From Spizellomyces punctatus DAOM BR117 (Eukaryota), in NCBI GenBank assembly GCA_000182565.2, contig KQ257455.1: a stretch of 64,000 bases of DNA; one strand, given 5' to 3'. The position numbers and the translations under genes are program-made. The notes under the pieces were generated by a model. The model did not search any database, was not told the origin of the DNA, and was given only the letters and a program-made list of their open reading frames with translations. The first letter of the stretch is position 1. Every line of letters starts with the position of its first letter. Of this stretch, positions 13,964 to 44,537 are shown piece by piece.

Positions 13964-16019
13964 TTACATAACAAGACACTTGTCTTTCTTCTTGTCTCCC
14001 TTTGCGCTCCCGCTGCTCCTGCGCGAGGTATCACCTTGCCCTGCCCTCCCATGACTATGACTCGCATATTCCGCCTCTTGCTGTCTTCGCACATATGCAT
14101 CATGTCTGACGTTCTCCTCCTCCTGGAGTGAGAGTGCTAGCGCCAAGTCCGATGACGCTTGAGTGGCCTCGCGTCCTTGACCTCCGACATCCACGTAGTC
14201 CTCCAGGCCGATCATGCTAGGCTGTTGTCCTCCTGAAAGGTTTGCACTCGGGATATGCTCTGATTCGCCAGACGTTTCGAATCGGTTAAAGCAACCATCC
14301 ACAAATGACGAGTCTCCTTCCACGTTATCCATTGTCTCCCACACGACAGCTTCGGCTCCTACGAATCCTTGGTCGGTAACAAGTGTATACAATGCAATTG
14401 TACCGTCCTTTCCGACCCGCTTGAACAAAGTGCAAAAATGATTGTTGCGGAATAATACCGCCAGCGAATTAGGTTCCAAAGTTTCACATAGAGTTTGTAG
14501 TCCATGGTAGGTCAGCTGTGACGCGGTTGCATCTAAAAACCCTTTGCATACAAGGCCCTCATGAATGAGTTGGTCGCGCTTCCGAGATGCCTCTTCATAT
14601 TCTTCTTCGGTCACCATTTTCTCTTTGCCTTTTGCTTGATGTGCCGCTGCAATCTCACCCTCGATAACCTTTTCCACAACTTGATTGTAACTTCCGCATT
14701 CAGAAACTACCACACGATACGTCTCCTCATCTTGGGGATCTACGGTCCAGCCATGACATAATATAATTTTGAAGAGATCAAACACCAGGAGACTGGAGGT
14801 TACTTCGAAGGAGAAGGGTGAATCGAAGCGTACATTGACATCCAATCCTGTTTGTAATGTCTGCATGTATAATGGATCAGTATGTGCACAGTACAAAGTG
14901 AAATGTGTATTTGAAGAAAGAGTTGATACCCACTGGTATGATCTCAAGGACATCTGTGAAATTCTTTGAAAAGTCTGCGGATGTATGACGGACGGATGAA
15001 AACGATGGTGATGTAGGGGATGATGCATTGGGACTACTCAGGGGTAGCCGGGTTGTCAGCCAGTCTCCTATTAGCTCAACAATATATTCATAATCCACTT
15101 CATCTCTTTCATATCTGATTTCGATATCTCCCCTCAACAGCAGCACATTGCAGAGTGCGAGGAGCGGACAAGGTCCATTGCGATTTTGCGTGATAATCTT
15201 GAGTCTTCGTGGGGTATCCGTCCTTGGATCCAAGTACGTGATCGGTTTAAGTCTGTAAGATTTATCAGCCGATTGCTGTGCGGGAAGATCGGACTGCGGG
15301 GGAGGGTGCGGCGAAGGTGACGGAAGGGATGAGCGACGAGGACCAACAGGCGGACGCTGAGGCTCATGTTGTTCTTGGGACGTCCCATCTGCTACAGTTG
15401 GAGCGTTTCCCGTGTTCTCTGCTGTATTTTCAATGGATTGACTTGTTGCTGTGTGTGAACGTGTCTCAACCTCTTTCGTAGAGTCGGTTATTTCTGGATG
15501 GTGTGATGTGGTTGGGGTGGAAGCTAGCAGCTCAGTTGGCAAAGACTGCGATTGTGACGGTACAGATTCCAACTTTGAGACATTCAATAGGGTAGCTTCA
15601 TGCAGAGAGGACACGCCCGGTTCCTCTTGTGATAGCGACTCTTGTGCTCTTTCTGCTGGTGCTTGGCGCTCCTCAAGGAGACCCACATGCTTCTCCGGCA
15701 CGATAGAGTCGTTCGCGTTCGCAGCCTGTGTGGTATTTGCCGTAGGCTCTACGGGAGGCGCTTGTACATCCTTGTCGTTTATAGCAGCAACGTCAGATGG
15801 TGGAGAGCTGACTGTGCGTTCAATTTCGCCTGCCGCGGTTGAAGAGAGGTTGATATCCTGGGGTTGTTCATGTTCGACGGTTGTGTCGCTCGCTTTGGCA
15901 TCGCTACCAGCCCGCGAGGATGGTGACTTTTGCTCTGGGCCGTCATGTATCTCGTATGAATATGGGTCGTCGTCGTCTGCTGCTGCTGTGAGCTGCTGCT
16001 GCTGCTGCTGCTCTGACAT
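13964..16019 (-). CDS. MINDY1/2-family (FAM63/DUF544) K48 deubiquitinase
   Basis: Catalytic IITQNRNGPCPLLALCN and LFRNNHF motifs, MIU-like SDLALALSLQEEE, and C-terminal CaaX KKKDKCLVM. One intron at about 14856-14931. Confidence 0.9.
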
Positions 16020-16136
16020 TGTTCAACCCAAAAGCCCAAACTCCTTCAGCCCTCGTCGTGCACACAAAAGACTGTTTATCAAGAAAGCACGCGCTCTGAA
16101 CGCTGGTTACGTGTTTAACGCCTGCTATGCCAACTA

Positions 16137-16140
16137 CATA
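16137..16140 (+). other. CATA target-adjacent motif (TAM); includes the left TA target-site duplication (16139-16140)
   Basis: caactaCATA|gtgcgg at the left junction. CATA is the TAM reported for S. punctatus Fanzor1. Confidence 0.85.
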
Positions 16141-16168
16141 GTGCGGAGCCGATGGGTATTGGCACTAG
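16141..16168 (+). repeat. Left terminal inverted repeat
   Basis: gtgcggagccgatgggtattggcactag is the exact reverse complement of 18252-18279 (30 bp if the TA is included). Confidence 0.97.
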
Positions 16169-16243
16169 TACAGTGATTCCAACCAATTGAATCATAATTT
16201 TACTCGATTTAGACTCATGAACTATGGTTTGATCCAAAAATCC

Positions 16244-16250
16244 TATATAA
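16244..16250 (+). promoter_or_regulatory. Putative TATA box of the Fanzor gene
   Basis: TATATAA lies 57 bp upstream of ATG 16301, inside the element and downstream of the alternative in-frame ATG at 16217. Confidence 0.45.
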
Positions 16251-16300
16251 GTCATCGTGCCCATTTTCCCAGGCTTTCATCTTTTTCCACAGATATCATC

Positions 16301-18184
16301 ATGCCATCAAAGAAAAAGCAAAAACTCGAAAAACTCGACAAACCTACTTGCTTACATACCTGCAACAAGACTCCCTTTGCAAAAGCTTTCCTGCCAAACG
16401 AGATCTACCGCCAACGGCTTCTAGATTACATCGCCATCATCCATCAACTTGCTGACCACGCTTCCCACGCTCTCAAATTCTACATCCTATCTGCACCATC
16501 CTTCACCGTGAACGAGGAGACCATCGAAGCGATTCTCTATCTTCTCAACAAAGGAGAGGCATGGCAACCAAAAACTGATGCAAAGAAGGCGCTACGCAGA
16601 TGCTTGTTGCCATACATTCAACGGTACTGCCACATCATCGGCTTCGTTCATCCAAATCTACAAAAAGAGCAGCAATCAGTCAATTACCTGACAGTGAGTA
16701 TGATGACGAACCTGAAAGTCAACGTTCAAGAGCATCTCATGCAGATGCTCCTTTGGTATATCAATCTGCAGCTTGACGTGAAGGGACAGAAGCAGCGACT
16801 GCCACTGAAAAGCGATGCGCGGAAAGCTTTCTTTACTCGGCTACGCTACTTGAAGTCGGTTTTCCTTTTCGAAACAATGCCAGAATCGCTGGATGACCTG
16901 AGCATTCTTGAAAACGAGATTTTAGAAGAGATCTGGACACTTAACCTGCCATTTCCTGATCAAGACAAGCCGCTTGCCTACCTCATTGCCATCGACGCGA
17001 TGTCCTTCTTTCCTGCATACTGCCGACTGTCAAAGTTGTTCGAGCAGCAAGGCTTTCGACAGTTCAGCGCGATACCTCTGCGCCGCTCTCTCATCCAAAG
17101 CCATGTGCGGATTGACACCGTCATCCTCTACTCTCATGTTCTTTGCATCACGCGACGAGAAGCAGAAGCCGTAGAGAAGGTCGATTTATGGTTGCGCGTC
17201 TGTAATCTACGTACCAAAGCTTTTCGGTCTCGCTGTGGTATGCATTTTGAAGGCTCGATCACGACGGACGGTACCTCGGTGTCAGTTTACTTGAAACATC
17301 CTGAAGCTGACAAGTATGGAAAACGCAGCGGAGGGAAAAAGTCAGCAAACACGATGGAGGCAGAGGTTAAAGCGCTTTATGTGGAAAACAACTTATCTGC
17401 TTGTCAAGAGAACTTTGTTGTTATCGACCCAAACAAGCGCGATCTTCTCTACTGCCAAGACAGCATTGGTACGACGTTCCGTTACACCGCCAACCAGCGA
17501 GCCGTGGAGACAGGTAGCCGGCGATTTGCAAAGAGACGAGAAGCAATGAAGAAAGAAGCTGGAGTTGACCTCATAGAATCACGTATCCCAAGCCACAAGA
17601 TGATGAACGTCATGGACTTTACTCGCTACCTTCTCGTTCGTCGCGCAGATTCGGATCGTCGCAAGGAATTCTACTCCCACCCTGCCCACACACGGTGGAA
17701 GTGGCATGCATTTATAAACCGTCAGAAGAGTGAATCGAACCTCATATCCAACATGCACAACAAGTTTGGGAGGAACTTTACCATTGTGATGGGTGATTGG
17801 AGCGACGCCGGTCGAACTACGAGATTTCAGACCTCATCAAAGACAAAAGGCTGGCGCACCCTCTTTAAGCGCAACCGCATTGATTGTTTCCTTCTCGACG
17901 AGTACAAGACCTCATCTGTCTGCCCTCACTGTTCCTCTGACGTTGAAAAAGGCTTCAAAACACGACCTCATTCAAGACCTTATCGACGACGAGAAGGCAA
18001 GATTGAAAAAGTCCACGGATTGCTGGGTTGTACCAACCCTAACTGTCAGCAAGACTGGACGATGCGCTACTGGAATCGAGATACGCTGTCAACCTGCAAC
18101 ATGCTGATGATCGTGCAATCAATGTTGGATGGGCACTGTAGACCAGAGGTGTTCAGCAGGAGGAGTGTTCCAGCCGTAGCATAG
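16301..18184 (+). CDS. Fz1: Fanzor1 RNA-guided DNA endonuclease (TnpB/Cas12-related RuvC), 627 aa
   Basis: NLS-like PSKKKQK. RuvC-I VVIDPNKRD (D376), RuvC-II LLDEYKTS (E534), zinc finger CPHC..CTNPNC (C541/544/577/582) and RuvC-III WNRD (D594). Closely resembles SpuFz1 as I recall it. Intronless. Confidence 0.95.
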   Translation: MPSKKKQKLEKLDKPTCLHTCNKTPFAKAFLPNEIYRQRLLDYIAIIHQLADHASHALKFYILSAPSFTVNEETIEAILYLLNKGEAWQPKTDAKKALRRCLLPYIQRYCHIIGFVHPNLQKEQQSVNYLTVSMMTNLKVNVQEHLMQMLLWYINLQLDVKGQKQRLPLKSDARKAFFTRLRYLKSVFLFETMPESLDDLSILENEILEEIWTLNLPFPDQDKPLAYLIAIDAMSFFPAYCRLSKLFEQQGFRQFSAIPLRRSLIQSHVRIDTVILYSHVLCITRREAEAVEKVDLWLRVCNLRTKAFRSRCGMHFEGSITTDGTSVSVYLKHPEADKYGKRSGGKKSANTMEAEVKALYVENNLSACQENFVVIDPNKRDLLYCQDSIGTTFRYTANQRAVETGSRRFAKRREAMKKEAGVDLIESRIPSHKMMNVMDFTRYLLVRRADSDRRKEFYSHPAHTRWKWHAFINRQKSESNLISNMHNKFGRNFTIVMGDWSDAGRTTRFQTSSKTKGWRTLFKRNRIDCFLLDEYKTSSVCPHCSSDVEKGFKTRPHSRPYRRREGKIEKVHGLLGCTNPNCQQDWTMRYWNRDTLSTCNMLMIVQSMLDGHCRPEVFSRRSVPAVA

Positions 18185-18206
18185 AGCGAGAGATTGGTTA
18201 GATTAG

Positions 18207-18296
18207 CCTTTCCGAGCCGGTTGTCGCGCGGTTCAATCCCTGGTGCGGGTGCTAGTGCCAATACCCATCGGCTCCGCACTAACCAACTCCCATTTA
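18207..18296 (+). ncRNA. Putative omegaRNA: about 75-nt scaffold (18207-18281) plus about 15-nt guide from the host flank (18282-18296, accaactcccattta)
   Basis: Pairings visible: gagccggt 18214-21 with atcggctc 18267-74, cgcgc 18225-29 with gtgcg 18243-47, and gggtg 18247-51 with taccc 18262-66. The position between stop codon and right end matches TnpB/Fanzor reRNA architecture. Ends are inferred. Confidence 0.85.
18252..18279 (-). repeat. Right terminal inverted repeat (doubles as the 3' part of the omegaRNA scaffold)
   Basis: ctagtgccaatacccatcggctccgcac, followed by TA. Confidence 0.97.
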
Positions 18297-18461
18297 GCGA
18301 TAGCACCCTTCTTGAAACTCGGAATCCTGCTCGTTTCCTTCCTTTCTGGACAACGACCTGCGCCTTATTTGGACCAAAAAGCCTCCATACCAGATAACAA
18401 AAACGCAAAGTCCTTTGCTGAGCAGCCTATCCAAGAAGACCTGTAGATCAGACGCGACCAC

Positions 18462-20482
18462 ATGTCTTCTGGAAGCGAATCGTCGCCGTCAGAGAGCTCC
18501 TACTTTAGCCGCAAGAATGGAGTGGAGAACATATCCTTGACCCGGTTACCCAATCTCGCCTCTCCCAGGTTAATGACACCAACTTCGCAACTCGCAGAGA
18601 CTGCTGTGGGAGTGAGGGAAGCTGCAAAATGCATAGGTATTTGACATTTTGCTGACAGAGCCTTGGCGCATTTTCACAAAGACTTCACCATGAACTTTTC
18701 TTATTGGGGTCAACGCTCCCCCAACCTTGCCAGAGATAGTAGTAATCCCTTTTTTCTTTTAGGACGTGCCTTGGTGAAGTTGGAGCGCCCGCAAACTGTC
18801 ATGCTCGTGGCAAAAGCACTAGACGCAAAGATTATCAAATTCACCCGGCAATTAGCCTGCCATCTTATCGACACCCCCCGAACGTCTTGCGGACACAAGG
18901 GGTTAACTGTGTAGGTTGCAAGAGTGTAATTCCAAACCCGGCGATTGATTGGGCACATTGTTAACAAGCGCTAATTTCCCTTTAGATATATTGATTCCAA
19001 ATTTCGCACTCATCCTGCATTCAGCTTTGACCGGCTACTGGCTTCTCATCCCCACTATGCCGATCAGCTCAAGTTTTGGACGCCAGAACTGTGCGCAACG
19101 CAAACAGATCACATCGATTTCATCATCACTCTTGGCGGAGACGGAACGGTAATCTACACGTCGTGGCTCTTCCAGCACGCGCAAGTACCTCCAGTTGTTC
19201 CCTTCGATCTGGGTTCGCTTGGATTTTTGACCAACTTCAACATCACAAACATACGCGATGTTCTGCAGCGAGTGATTGGGTGCCGTGGTGCTGGAGTTAG
19301 GGTGAACTTGCGTATGAGACTTAGCTGCACGGTTTGGAGGTCGGACTTTAAAAGCAAAAATAAAGAGGTCTTAGAAGGTCGGACGGCTGAGAAAAAGAGA
19401 CGGGAAGATTTGTGTAGTATCAAGGGCGACGAGGAAGAAGCAGATGGCCGTTCAAAGATAGGGAGACGAGCTTCGAGTCAGCAACCTGATCCTGGCACTA
19501 CACTGAATGGGTTACCCGCCTATTCTTCCGACGACCTAATATCTACCACTCCCGCACCACGACTGAACGATGAACATGCGACTTCCGATATTGGCGACTT
19601 ATTAGATGAGATCTCTTTGCAATTGATGTCAAAAGTTGATCCAGACGAGCTCGACCCAGGACCTGGGACACCGAAACGGATCCGATCAATGCAGTCACTG
19701 GGTACAACGCTCCCCAGTGCTGACAATGCAAAACCTGTGCCAACAGAAACCTTCCAAATATTGAATGACTTGGTAGTCGATCGTGGACCGAGCGCATATA
19801 TGAGCCAATTGGAGTTGTTTGTGGACGATAGACATTTGACTACTGTTCAGGCTGACGGTCTTGTTCTCTCTACACCAACGGGGTCAACAGCTTACTCGGT
19901 ATGTAAAATGCAAACTGTCGGTCATGTCGACAGAATACAAATTGATATTATCAAATATGCTCTGAACAGCTGTCAGCTGGAGGCTCCTTAGTACATCCCG
20001 AAGTCCCTTCCGTCCTCGTTACCCCTATCTGTCCACATACACTTTCCTTCAGACCAATGCTCCTTCCCGATTCCACTGATATACGAATTCAAGTCCCACG
20101 AGATTCGCGGACGTCTGCGTGGGCTAGTTTCGATGGTCGACACAGAATAGAGTTGAAGAAGGGCGACTATGTTACTGTGACCATGTCGCGATGGCCCATG
20201 CCTACTGTTTGCGAGGTAGATCAGGGTACAGATTGGTCTGAAAGTTTGAGAAGATGTTTGCATTGGAACGAGCGCACACGCCAGAAACCGTTTGTTGGTG
20301 AACAAGACAAGAGGTTGGAGAAAGTTGGGGACTCGTTGACGCAACTAGACAGTGAGCTTTCATCAAGCAGTGAAACGAGAACGTCGTTCAACGGCGACGT
20401 ATCTGATGGTTCTTATAGGTGTGAGGACATATGTGAACAAGATGAACAGCGTGAAGATGACGACCCCGGGTTAAGGATGTGA
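18462..20482 (+). CDS. NAD(H) kinase (UTR1/YEF1-like), multi-exon
   Basis: LGGDGT, GSLGFLT, ILNDLVVDRG, QADGLVLSTPTGSTAYS, TPICPHTLSFRP and SFDGR. Confidence 0.92.
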
Positions 20483-28476: not shown

Positions 28477-29989
28477 ATGCCTTCACGTACACTGCCATCG
28501 GCTCCCACCACCTTCCGATGGATTCCATTCCTTTTGGGCGTGCTGGTCCTTTTTCCACTGGTGCACGCGCAAGTACCGCTGCCGACCTTTTCTCTCCCTT
28601 CTGGTCTTCCGACTTCCATTCCTTCGTCGCTCCCTTCGTCAGTTCCCACATCTCTACCGCAGGGAGGTCCTTGTCGGAACCAGGCAGACTGTGCTGTCGC
28701 TCCTGGAACATCCTGTAACATACCTCCTGGAGCCGCAGGTGGGGTTTGCTTGCCGAGCACGGCAACATCAACTCAATCTCCCACGACCACGCAAAGTCCA
28801 GCACCAAAAGTTCTGTGTAATAGCAATGCAACGTTGTCGTGTCCTCTTGGATCTATATGTTTAAACGGCGTGTGTGAGACTGCGGGGGATGCGGTAAAGA
28901 AACTGCCAACATGGGTAGGTGGAAACGTTGCACTTTTTCCGTCGGAAAATGACGATTTTATGGCGTCTAAGCTAAAGCATGTTCTATCAGGTTTATGTCG
29001 TCATCGCTCTTGGCGCACTATTGATTCTAGGAGGATGTGCAACACTATTTTGTTGCTGCTGCAATCTGTGTTGTTTCGCTGGACGAGCCGCAAAGGCAAC
29101 GGCGAGTGCTGGCTTAGCTGTGCCTAGACAGCTTTCAAAGGGCATGGCAAAAGCAACCGGACTCTCTGGCGGTGGCAATTCTAGATATGCGACCGATGCA
29201 GTTTACGGAGCTGCGGGCTCTCCGCGTTCCCCTAATGACGGCCCCGCCCCACTCCCTAGCGGTTATCGGAAACCGGTCGACTATTTTCAAACGGTAGAGA
29301 CAGTTCCAGAACCACCACCTCCGATCGCATCCCCATCGCATCATGTACCCGGCGCTGCTCTAGCCGCTGAGCAGAACTACGATTATTCAGCGTATCCCTC
29401 GACACCTCAAGCGGGGTATTCCCCCTCGCCATATTCTCCATACGCTGCTACATCACTCGCGACAAACTATTTTACCCCCATGGATTCGAACCCCTCTCCC
29501 CTTCATCGAGTTTCCGCATACGGGGATCCACGGACTGTAGAATCACCAAATACACGGTTCTCCGTCTATCCACCATTAGCAACCGATGCTTCTTACCCAC
29601 AGCCTCAACCTCGGCGCTATTCTCATAGCCAGGATATCTATCCTCCACCACCAACAGGTGAATTTGCATATTGGGATGCTCAGCGCCGCTTCCATCAAGG
29701 TTACAAGGACGAGGAGGGGATCGTTCATCGTGGCTATTGGGATGAAGAGGGGGAGTTCCACCTTTTATCGTTGCCCCGAGGGGAGCGTGGACAAGGAGAG
29801 ATATATACCGGTGTACACTCTCCACATCCTGTCTCATCGGAGGCTATACAGGATGATCCGGTGTATGCGAACAGGGACTTTGAGGCCGAAACGAAGAGCT
29901 TTAGTTTTGGAGCAACAGCTGCGAGCGGTAGTGTCAGAACAGTCGGTACAAGAGAAAAAGAAAGAGAAAAGTACACGAGCGGCGTGTGA
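28477..29989 (+). CDS. Single-pass membrane protein with Cys-rich ectodomain and Pro/Tyr-rich tail
   Basis: Signal-like FLLGVLVLFPLVHA, two small Cys clusters, TM VYVVIALGALLILGGC followed by CCCC, and one intron at about 28914-28990. Confidence 0.65.
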
Positions 29990-44455: not shown

Positions 44456-44537
44456 GCACGCTTGTCCGAGCGGTCTAAGGAGCTGGTCTCAAGTTCCAGT
44501 CTCGAAAGAGGCGTGAGTTCGAATCTCACAGCGTGCA
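44456..44537 (+). tRNA. tRNA-Leu(CAA), type II with long variable arm, no intron
   Basis: Acceptor GCACGCT/AGCGTGC, D-loop AGCGGTCTA, anticodon CAA at 44490-92, variable arm CTC-GAAA-GAG and T-arm GTGAG-TTCGAAT-CTCAC. Confidence 0.95.

What the first reader, a model, noticed from the sequence alone, without database searches (positions are those of the whole stretch)
16137..18296. Complete eukaryotic RNA-guided nuclease locus (Fanzor1 + omegaRNA) inside a TIR transposon
Seen: perfect 28-bp TIRs, TA duplication, an intronless 627-aa ORF in an otherwise intron-dense genome with all three RuvC acidic residues (D376/E534/D594), a C4 zinc finger and an N-terminal NLS, and a ~95-nt structured non-coding right end. 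Established: this is the TnpB/Cas12-related OMEGA architecture. Fanzor1 from S. punctatus has been published as a programmable RNA-guided DNA endonuclease with a CATA TAM, so the class is known. Inference: this copy looks like an intact paralog that is not identical to the SpuFz1 I recall, and it should be reprogrammable by swapping the 3' guide.
Basis: partly seen in the sequence, partly recalled or inferred. Interest (0 to 1): 0.97.

Follow-up and report, generated by a model that had tools for sequence, protein, structure and literature searches.

The report
Known Fanzor1 transposon copy, intact paralog
This is an intact-looking copy of SPu-1, the chytrid-fungus mobile element that carries the Fanzor1 RNA-guided DNA cutter and its guide RNA; the element family was described in 2013 and shown to be a programmable nuclease in 2023, so the locus is real but already known.

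Summary
Perfect 28-nt inverted repeats (16141-16168 / 18252-18279) are flanked by TA. They enclose one uninterrupted 627-aa ORF (16301-18184) and a 97-nt non-coding tail.

The protein matches the solved Spizellomyces punctatus Fanzor1 (PDB 8GKH) end to end at 85.7% identity. It keeps the RuvC residues D376/N378/E534/D594 and the CCCC zinc finger.

The last 75 nt of the element (18207-18281) carry all 18 omegaRNA scaffold nucleotides named in Saito et al. 2023. They fold into the published two-stem, 6-nt-linker shape. The left flank reads CATA, the published TAM, and the native guide would be 18282-18296.

- SPu-1 is the prototype Fanzor element (Bao & Jurka 2013).
- Saito et al. counted 42 Fz loci (19 full length) and 134 ghost loci in this genome.
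- This exact protein is already in NCBI, UniRef and EukProt.

Activity of this particular paralog is untested. One caveat is lysine at the TAM-contacting arginine (SpuFz1 R96, here K91). RNA reads show transcription of the element family but nothing specific to this locus.

Interest is low.

The parts
16137..16140 (+). CATA at the left junction. This is the published SpuFz1 TAM: conserved CA plus the left TA.
   Evidence: Sequence. TAM 5'-CATA and 'conserved CA upstream of the 5' IR' are stated in PMC10432273. Reads and contigs from other copies diverge just left of 16138 or 16135 (table 7).
16141..16168 (+). Left terminal inverted repeat: 28 nt perfect, 30 nt with the TA, 33 nt at 97%.
   Evidence: 0 matches expected by shuffling.
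16244..16251 (+). TATATAAG, a TATA-box-like motif 50 nt upstream of the start codon. Candidate Pol II promoter element (inference only).
   Evidence: One search gives the position. No functional test was done.
16301..18184 (+). Fanzor1 ORF, 627 aa plus stop, no intron. RuvC D376/N378/E534/D594. Zinc finger C541, C544, C577, C582.
   Evidence: (E = 0, 1182.7 bits to 8GKH).
18185..18206 (+). [quoted passage not shown]
18207..18281 (+). omegaRNA scaffold, 75 nt: stem-loop 1 (nt 8-28), 6-nt linker (nt 29-34), stem 2 with an 8-nt loop (nt 35-75). It contains the right TIR and the right TA.
   Evidence: 18 of 18 nucleotides named in PMC10432273 fit this register. The next best of about 128,000 registers fits 14 of 18. 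Loose ends of reads from other copies begin at 18209.
18252..18279 (-). Right terminal inverted repeat (28 nt perfect).
18280..18281 (.). Right TA: scaffold nt 74-75 (U74 read from the window; A75 also named in the paper), either the putative target-site duplication or the end of the 30-nt IR.
   Evidence: Contigs from other copies diverge right after 18281 (table 7).
18282..18296 (+). Predicted native 15-nt guide (ACCAACTCCCATTTA), taken from the right flank. It occurs once in the window.
   Evidence: Register. Guide length of 14-15 nt comes from PMC10432273. The first 12 nt occur only at 18282. Transcription of this junction at this locus is not shown.

Best explanation
The locus is one full-length copy of SPu-1, the non-autonomous TIR element of Spizellomyces punctatus. 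SPu-1 carries Fanzor1 (a TnpB/Cas12-type RuvC nuclease) and its omegaRNA.

Shown here:
- The anatomy: CATA, 28/30-nt IR, intronless 627-aa ORF, 22-nt spacer, 75-nt scaffold ending in the right IR, then the flank.
- End-to-end homology to the solved SpuFz1.
- An intact catalytic triad and zinc finger.
- A scaffold that carries every nucleotide the cryo-EM paper names as a contact.

Inferred from the published work on the sister copy:
- An RNA of about 90 nt runs from 18207 across the right end into 14-15 nt of flank (18282-18296).
- The protein binds this RNA. The ribonucleoprotein recognises double-stranded DNA reading CATA followed by the guide match, and cuts it with staggered ends.
- CATA plus ACCAACTCCC... 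is exactly what an unoccupied copy of this site would read. The natural target would therefore be the empty site. The break would be repaired from the occupied copy, as in TnpB-style homing or retention.
- Transposition itself must be supplied in trans, because the ORF fills the element.

My odds: a member of this family with all features intact, about 0.97. This particular paralog is an active RNA-guided nuclease, about 0.7. The confidence given for this explanation as a whole (0.85) lies between the two.
For: Protein
- phmmer against the PDB: 8GKH (SpuFz1), E = 0, 1182.7 bits, query residues 2-627 against chain 396-1032.
- P0003 (638 aa) is the published protein. It gives 1493 bits to 8GKH, and all 48 residue names taken from the paper fit its numbering.
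- Identity to it is 534/623, 85.7%.
- D376/N378/E534/D594 match D383/N385/E541/D606. In the 16-sequence alignment, D376 and N378 are invariant. E534 and C541/C544 are kept in 15 of 16. D594 and C577/C582 are kept in 15 of the 15 that have a residue there.
- 21 of 25 named omegaRNA-contact residues and 20 of 23 other named contact or catalytic residues are identical.
- AlphaFold2 model: mean pLDDT 74, pTM 0.60. Foldseek against the PDB ranks SpuFz chains first (E 5e-66 to 3e-64, TM 0.70-0.75), then PpFz and GtFz. Ranks 8 onward in the list are Cas12-family, TnpB or Fanzor2 chains, all weak.

omegaRNA
- 18 of 18 named nucleotides fit with nt 1 = 18207. The next best register in the window fits 14 of 18.
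- The MFE fold reproduces the two stems, the 6-nt linker and the 8-nt loop.

Element ends
- for the repeats, and CATA at the left flank.
- Reads and contigs from other copies diverge at 16135/16138 and after 18281.

Source and literature
- The exact 627-aa protein is in NCBI, UniRef and EukProt on a 1,496,661-bp contig. Its 90% cluster mate is an S. punctatus DAOM BR117 protein.
- 17 of the 47 hits are named S. punctatus DAOM BR117.
- PMC10432273 (passages), PMC3627910 (passages), PMC11423790 (passages).
Against: - No test of activity or RNA binding exists for this copy.
- K91 replaces SpuFz1 R96, a REC-domain residue that contacts TAM base dC(-4). At that column 12 of the 15 relatives with a residue have R, 2 have T, and only this protein has K. 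One other S. punctatus paralog also has K.
- The Cell paper reports that mutating the conserved REC-loop arginine of GtFz1 (R85A) abolishes cleavage. That R96 is the same arginine is my inference.
- Other changes at named contacts: R157W, R260Q, W570Y, R550H, M607T and S598 deleted.
- The folding energy of the scaffold is not distinguishable from shuffles.
- RNA reads (run X8) are not specific to this locus. Of 880 laid reads, 853 fit only partly. Near-fixed differences at 16189, 16373, 18054 and 18117 mark them as coming from other copies. Depth over the middle of the ORF (16628-17900) is about 0-2.
- The local Pfam and NCBIfam scans gave 0 families and Rfam gave 0 matches.
Confidence: 0.85

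Rival explanations
1. The copy is intact-looking but functionally impaired. The ORF is open only because the insertion is recent. Substitutions at DNA and RNA contacts weaken or abolish TAM binding or omegaRNA loading. Any function at this site would then be supplied by other Fz paralogs acting in trans on its omegaRNA.
For: - Substitutions at named contacts: K91 for R96, W152 for R157, Y for W570, H for R550, T for M607, S598 deleted.
- K at the R96 column is unique among 15 relatives with a residue there.
- GtFz1 R85A is dead (PMC11423790).
- There is almost no read depth over the ORF body.
- Saito et al. show that ghost omegaRNAs work with SpuFz1 in trans.
Against: - R to K and W to Y are conservative changes.
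- 41 of 48 named contact or catalytic residues are unchanged.
- The triad and zinc finger are intact.
- The TIRs are perfect.
- The scaffold is unchanged at all 18 named nucleotides.
- Low depth may reflect that only about 6 in 100 reads of run X8 were read.
Confidence: 0.22
2. The element is an autonomous transposon and the Fz protein is itself its transposase.
For: It is the only long ORF between the TIRs.
Against: - The protein is a TnpB-type RuvC nuclease shown to be an RNA-guided endonuclease (PMC10432273).
- Saito et al. found no transposase inside the IRs and proposed help in trans.
- Bao & Jurka list transposases of several superfamilies that carry Fanzor1 as a passenger.
Confidence: 0.03
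3. The gene is a domesticated host gene, no longer part of a mobile element.
For: It sits in a roughly 300-bp divergent intergenic region between two housekeeping-type genes.
Against: - The TIRs are perfect and the TAM and guide geometry is intact.
- The family is multi-copy: 42 Fz loci and 134 ghost loci.
- Reads from many copies share the same boundaries.
Confidence: 0.02

Closest known systems
SpuFz1 (S. punctatus Fanzor1; PDB 8GKH and 9CEU-9CEZ; Saito et al. 2023, Xu et al. 2024)
   Same: - Same genome and same element family.
- Alignment from residue 2 to the last residue.
- Same catalytic triad, zinc finger and TAM-reading Q/Q/N/R/Y residues (Q124, Q125, N128, R285, Y339).
- Same omegaRNA scaffold at all 18 named nucleotides.
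- CATA at the left flank.
   Different: - 627 aa against 638 aa, with 85.7% identity.
- R96K, R157W, R260Q, W570Y, R550H, M607T and S598 deleted.
- Its own native guide.
- Not tested biochemically, as far as the passages I read show.
SPu-1 element (Bao & Jurka 2013), the prototype Fanzor1 transposable element
   Same: About 2.1 kb, a single ORF, 33-bp TIRs and a putative TA duplication. One search gives the paper's description; searches show it here.
   Different: None that I can see. This appears to be one of the copies. The paper's consensus protein is 633 aa, against 627 aa here.
IS200/IS605 TnpB with its omegaRNA (e.g. ISDra2; PDB 8H1J)
   Same: - RuvC nuclease with a CCCC zinc finger.
- Guide RNA transcribed across the right end into the flank.
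- TAM at the left flank, so the empty site is the target. The logic comes from the papers; the geometry is shown here.
   Different: - Only a weak structural match (Foldseek E 0.087, TM 0.17-0.27).
- No Pfam OrfB_Zn_ribbon hit.
- The omegaRNA does not overlap the ORF and lacks a pseudoknot (paper).
- The ends are TIRs rather than subterminal hairpins.
- There is no TnpA in the element.
Tc1/mariner-type TIR elements carrying Fanzor1 (Bao & Jurka 2013)
   Same: TIRs flanked by TA.
   Different: There is no DDE transposase in the element. Whether the TA is a duplication cannot be told from one copy.

Membership tests
Fanzor1 / SPu-1 (SpuFz1 family) | Full-length sequence homology to SpuFz1 | tested here: met
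   E = 0, 1182.7 bits, residues 2-627. 85.7% identity.
Fanzor1 / SPu-1 (SpuFz1 family) | RuvC catalytic D-E-D (D383, E541, D606 in SpuFz1) | tested here: met
   D376, E534 and D594.
Fanzor1 / SPu-1 (SpuFz1 family) | CCCC zinc finger in the NUC/TNB domain | tested here: met
   C541, C544, C577 and C582.
Fanzor1 / SPu-1 (SpuFz1 family) | 75-nt omegaRNA scaffold ending at the right IR, with two stems and a 6-nt linker | tested here: met
   18 of 18 named nucleotides fit at register 18207. The MFE fold has the same architecture. The energy z-score alone is not significant.
Fanzor1 / SPu-1 (SpuFz1 family) | 30-nt IRs with CA upstream of the left IR; TAM CATA | tested here: met
Fanzor1 / SPu-1 (SpuFz1 family) | omegaRNA expressed and bound by the protein | tested here: inconclusive
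   Run X8 gives depth of about 30-40 over 18175-18265. Half the reads carry a 1-nt deletion at 18228 and others carry variants, so they come from other copies. The strand was not calibrated and no defined ends were seen. Binding cannot be tested here.
Fanzor1 / SPu-1 (SpuFz1 family) | Guide- and TAM-dependent dsDNA cleavage | not testable with these tools
   Needs biochemistry.
TnpB/Cas12 superfamily | RuvC-fold nuclease lobe similar to TnpB or Cas12f | tested here: inconclusive
   After the Fanzor1 chains, all listed Foldseek hits are Cas12, TnpB or Fanzor2, but they are weak (E 1e-3 to 0.14, TM 0.14-0.27). The relationship rests on the solved SpuFz1 structure (paper).
TnpB/Cas12 superfamily | Pfam OrfB_Zn_ribbon (PF07282) match | tested here: not met
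   0 Pfam families at E <= 1. The precomputed PF26935 listed for relatives did not come up in the local scan.
Tc1/mariner-like cut-and-paste element | TA target-site duplication | tested here: inconclusive
   TA is on both sides. It is palindromic, and Saito et al. count it as part of the IR. No empty site was available, because no genome is held.
Tc1/mariner-like cut-and-paste element | DDE transposase encoded between the TIRs | tested here: not met
   The Fz ORF is the only ORF of 80 aa or more with an ATG start inside the element. It fills 1,884 of the 2,143 bp.

The most novel reading that the evidence does not exclude
The omegaRNA gene may carry its own internal RNA-polymerase-III-type promoter.
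- Scaffold nt 24-34 (18230-18240, GGTTCAATCCC) fit the tRNA-gene B-box consensus GGTTCRANNCC. The consensus is recalled, not taken from a tool.
- An A-box-like TAGCATAGAGC lies 42 nt upstream (18177-18187). It fits 7 of the 9 specified positions by my hand count.

If this is real, every SPu-1 copy and every ORF-less ghost copy would transcribe its guide autonomously, like a SINE. That would explain how 134 ghost loci could supply guides without a Pol II gene.

Evidence against is substantial:
- The motif occurs twice in the window, against about one expected from base arithmetic.
- ARAGORN sees nothing tRNA-like here.
- The window's real tRNA-Leu does not fit the strict pattern.
- The same nucleotides are protein contacts, which would conserve them anyway.
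- The mature RNA starts at 18207, too close to the B box for a standard type-2 promoter.

I found no statement of this idea. The search for 'Fanzor' plus 'polymerase III' returned 10 papers, 9 of them listed. By title and abstract start they concern editor engineering or are reviews, and none was read.
Probability: 0.07. Interest if true: 0.55.

Novelty: already known. Interest (0 to 1): 0.15.

Why it matters
It matters little as a discovery. Fanzor1 of S. punctatus is the best-studied eukaryotic OMEGA nuclease, with cryo-EM structures and engineered editors. Its element family was the founding example of Fanzor.

The modest value is as natural variation. This is an intact paralog 14% diverged from the engineered enzyme with an unchanged omegaRNA scaffold, and it carries substitutions at named TAM and RNA contacts (R96K, R157W, W570Y, R550H). 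These could inform tolerance maps or engineering.

The clean CATA | element | guide geometry at this one site is also a textbook illustration that the native guide targets the empty site.

Tried and rejected
- Whole-genome search for other copies and for an empty site: no genome is held for this window.
- Rfam at E <= 1 over 15500-19000: 0 matches.
- Pfam and NCBIfam on the protein: 0 families each.
- ARAGORN on 15900-18600: nothing.
- Covariation test of the omegaRNA fold using relatives:
  - A metagenome scan gave 29 loci, with tblastn best-segment identity of 23-57%.
  - None shows sequence similarity to the 112-nt tail. blastn-short hits were only 10-14 nt at E >= 0.47, and nhmmer found none.
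  - The 5 loci examined of those 29 (L002, L003, L005, L007, L014) show no long terminal inverted repeats around the ORF.
  - No alignment and no covariation count could therefore be made.
- Locus-specific expression from public runs:
  - Run X8 (RNA, raw reads): 880 reads laid, of which 853 fit only partly. Depth is concentrated at 16082-16536 and 17993-18356, with opposite first-mate strands at the two ends. The library's strand convention could not be calibrated because the flanking genes had about zero depth.
  - Run X10: nothing laid.
  - Run X2 (kind unknown): contigs confirm the locus and its boundaries.
  - Run X1 (root metatranscriptome, small share): only 7 contigs, over 17784-18046.
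  - None of this shows that this copy is transcribed.
- Other copies or ghost elements in the window: none. The TIR search with 3 mismatches and blastn of the element against the window found only the element itself.
I therefore cannot state which numbered locus this is, or whether it is one of the four with native small-RNA signal.
Full report
WHAT IS THERE

The stretch 16137-18296 has this layout:
- CATA at 16137-16140.
- A perfect 28-nt inverted repeat at 16141-16168.
- A 132-nt leader containing TATATAAG at 16244.
- An uninterrupted ORF at 16301-18184 (627 aa).
- A 22-nt spacer.
- A 75-nt block at 18207-18281 that contains the second repeat arm (18252-18279) and ends in TA.
- Unique flank after that.

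The repeat is not a chance feature. A search allowing 3 mismatches finds only these two sites in 64 kb, and none in 100 shuffles. With the TA the repeat is 30 nt. With one mismatch it reaches 33 nt.

No other copy or fragment of the element lies in the window.

THE PROTEIN

- phmmer against all PDB chains gives the MBP-fused S. punctatus Fanzor1 of 8GKH and 9CEU-9CEZ at E = 0 (1182.7 bits). The match covers query residues 2-627.
- Weaker matches follow: Parasitella Fanzor1 (3e-49) and Guillardia Fanzor1 (7e-6).
- The published protein is P0003 (638 aa). It scores 1493 bits on 8GKH. All 48 residue names I took from the Nature paper fit its numbering.
- The window's protein is a different paralog. 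It is 534/623 (85.7%) identical to P0003. Its closest relative is P0002 at 88%.
- The metal-binding residues D383/N385/E541/D606 of SpuFz1 (PMC10432273) are D376/N378/E534/D594 here.
- The zinc-finger cysteines are C541, C544, C577 and C582.
- Of 25 residues the paper names as omegaRNA contacts, 21 are identical. The differences are W570Y, R550H, M607T and S598 deleted.
- Of 23 other named TAM, heteroduplex or catalytic residues, 20 are identical. The differences are R96K, R157W and R260Q.
- An AlphaFold2 model built on a 16-sequence alignment has mean pLDDT 74. Foldseek places it on the SpuFz chains (E 5e-66 to 3e-64, TM 0.70-0.75), then PpFz and GtFz. After that come only Cas12, TnpB and Fanzor2 chains, at weak scores.
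- The local Pfam and NCBIfam scans return nothing.

THE RNA

The Nature paper describes a 75-nt scaffold made of stem-loop 1, a 6-nt linker (A29-C34) and stem 2, followed by a 14-15-nt guide. It names 18 scaffold nucleotides.

Sliding that list along the window, all 18 fit only when nt 1 = 18207. The next best of about 128,000 registers on both strands fits 14.

The minimum-free-energy fold of 18207-18281 pairs nt 8-28, leaves nt 29-34 single-stranded, and pairs nt 35-75 around an 8-nt loop. This is the published architecture, including the 8-nt loop that separates Fz-locus omegaRNAs from ghost ones.

The folding energy itself is unremarkable (z -1.35, and z -0.86 for 112 nt). Rfam has no family for it. 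The case for the RNA therefore rests on identity with a characterised RNA, not on thermodynamics.

The guide would be 18282-18296.

GEOMETRY AND MECHANISM

The published TAM of SpuFz1 is 5'-CATA, and the paper notes a conserved CA before the left IR. Here the left junction reads CA-TA-IR and the right junction reads IR-TA-guide.

Removing the element leaves CATA followed by the guide sequence. This holds whether the TA is a 2-bp target duplication (Bao & Jurka's 'putative TA TSDs') or the right TA belongs to the element and it inserted after CATA without duplication. Sequence cannot separate the two models, because TA is palindromic.

Either way the native RNP is aimed at the unoccupied site and cannot cut the occupied one. 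This is the TnpB retention/homing logic. That logic is an inference for Fanzor: Saito et al. discuss it but do not show it.

The ORF fills 1,884 of 2,143 bp, so no transposase is encoded. Mobility must come in trans.

SOURCE AND PRIOR KNOWLEDGE

- The exact 627-aa sequence is in NCBI, UniRef, nr and EukProt on a 1.50-Mb contig. Its 90% cluster mate is SPPG_06542 of S. punctatus DAOM BR117.
- 17 of 47 homologues are named proteins of that strain. The rest come from other chytrids and from unnamed metagenome or Logan contigs.
- Bao & Jurka 2013 introduced Fanzor with this very element. They describe SPu-1 as about 2,100 bp with a single ORF, 33-bp TIRs and putative TA TSDs, in 17 full-length copies of which nine have intact ORFs.
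- Saito et al. 2023 report 42 Fz loci (19 full length) and 134 ghost loci in this genome. They give about 82% identity among the proteins and 30-nt IRs. They found native 88-90-nt RNAs at four loci, and showed RNP formation, CATA-dependent cleavage and reprogramming.
- The finding is therefore a correct re-discovery.
- I could not see the supplementary locus lists, so I cannot give this copy's number in them.

EXPRESSION

One RNA run of the same species label (X8) was laid at 97% likeness or better.
- 880 reads were laid, and 853 of them fit only partly.
- Depth is high at 16082-16536 and at 17993-18356. It is about 0-2 across 16628-17900.
- Near-fixed differences show that most reads come from other copies: 16189 G>T in 78 of 88 reads, 16373 C>T in 40 of 47, 18054 A>C in 7 of 7, 18117 A>C in 17 of 27, and a 1-nt deletion at 18228 in 20 of 40.
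- First mates lie mostly on the - strand at the left end and mostly on the + strand at the right end. The library convention could not be calibrated.
- Loose ends cluster at 16135/16138, at 18209 and (in X2 contigs) after 18281. These are the family's boundaries and the start of the scaffold block shared with ghost elements.

This shows that the family is transcribed. It says nothing certain about this copy.

CAVEAT ON 'INTACT'

K91 stands where SpuFz1 has R96, which hydrogen-bonds TAM base dC(-4). In the 16-sequence alignment that column holds R in 12, T in 2, a gap in 1, and K only here. One other S. punctatus paralog also has K.

The Cell paper reports a conserved REC-loop arginine that anchors in the TAM duplex, and whose alanine mutant kills GtFz1. 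That this arginine is R96 is my inference.

Lysine may well suffice, and the copy did land next to CATA. Even so, this is the one place where the paralog might differ in behaviour.

CONTEXT

The element lies in the roughly 300-bp space between two divergent genes:
- A MINDY deubiquitinase on the - strand, with its ATG at 16019.
- An NAD kinase on the + strand, with its likely ATG at 18464.

Both have Pfam matches split over two reading frames, which means they contain introns. The Fz ORF has none. That is consistent with a recently active element, and with Jiang et al.'s note that some Fanzors lack introns.

VERDICT

The feature is real and was correctly interpreted, but it is already known. 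Interest is low. The only speculative lead is a B-box-like motif inside the scaffold, described in the section on the most novel reading.

Noticed in passing
window 18230-18240 and 18177-18187: GGTTCAATCCC (scaffold nt 24-34) fits the recalled tRNA-gene B-box consensus GGTTCRANNCC. TAGCATAGAGC, 42 nt upstream, is A-box-like at 7 of 9 specified positions by hand count. The strict B-box pattern occurs twice in the window on both strands, the other at 29492 (-), against about one expected by base arithmetic.
   Followed up: partly
window 16170 (run X8, table 7): 27 reads match up to 16170, just inside the left TIR, and then continue as pure A (agreement 1). This could be a poly(A) tail on a transcript ending in an IR, a T-run in the opposite sense, or an A-rich interior of another copy. 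Unexplained.
   Followed up: no
window 16082-16536 versus 17993-18356 (run X8, table 2): Read depth sits at the two ends of the element, with opposite first-mate strands: mostly '-' at the left and mostly '+' at the right. Transcription at the two ends therefore runs in opposite directions, either both inward or both outward. The library convention is not known.
   Followed up: partly
window 13967-16019 (-) and 18464-20479 (+): The flanking genes are a MINDY deubiquitinase and an NAD kinase. They are divergently oriented and each is split by at least one intron. The element lies 119 bp from the MINDY start codon.
   Followed up: partly
window 16130-16135 and 18283-18288: The hexamer CCAACT occurs in both flanks, 3 nt before the left TA and 1 nt after the right TA. 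It is not adjacent to the ends, so it is not a duplication. Probably chance.
   Followed up: no
window 17784-18046 (run X1, table 8): Seven contigs of a root metatranscriptome match the RuvC/zinc-finger part of the ORF with 0-2 differences. One has 83 nt replaced by 22 other letters. The share is small and it is not evidence of habitat.
   Followed up: no
window 16217: An in-frame ATG 84 nt upstream would extend the ORF to 655 aa. It lies upstream of the TATA-like motif, and that form is not in the public protein collection.
   Followed up: partly
window 44456-44537: tRNA-Leu(CAA) on the + strand, the only tRNA ARAGORN finds in the window. The window also holds 100 N. I did not look at where they lie.
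   Followed up: no
literature (PMC11423790): The Cell 2024 text gives the TAMs of GtFz1 and SpuFz1 as CATA and TTAA 'respectively'. This is the reverse of the Nature 2023 paper, which gives CATA for SpuFz1 and TTAAN for GtFz1. It looks like a slip in the later text.
   Followed up: no
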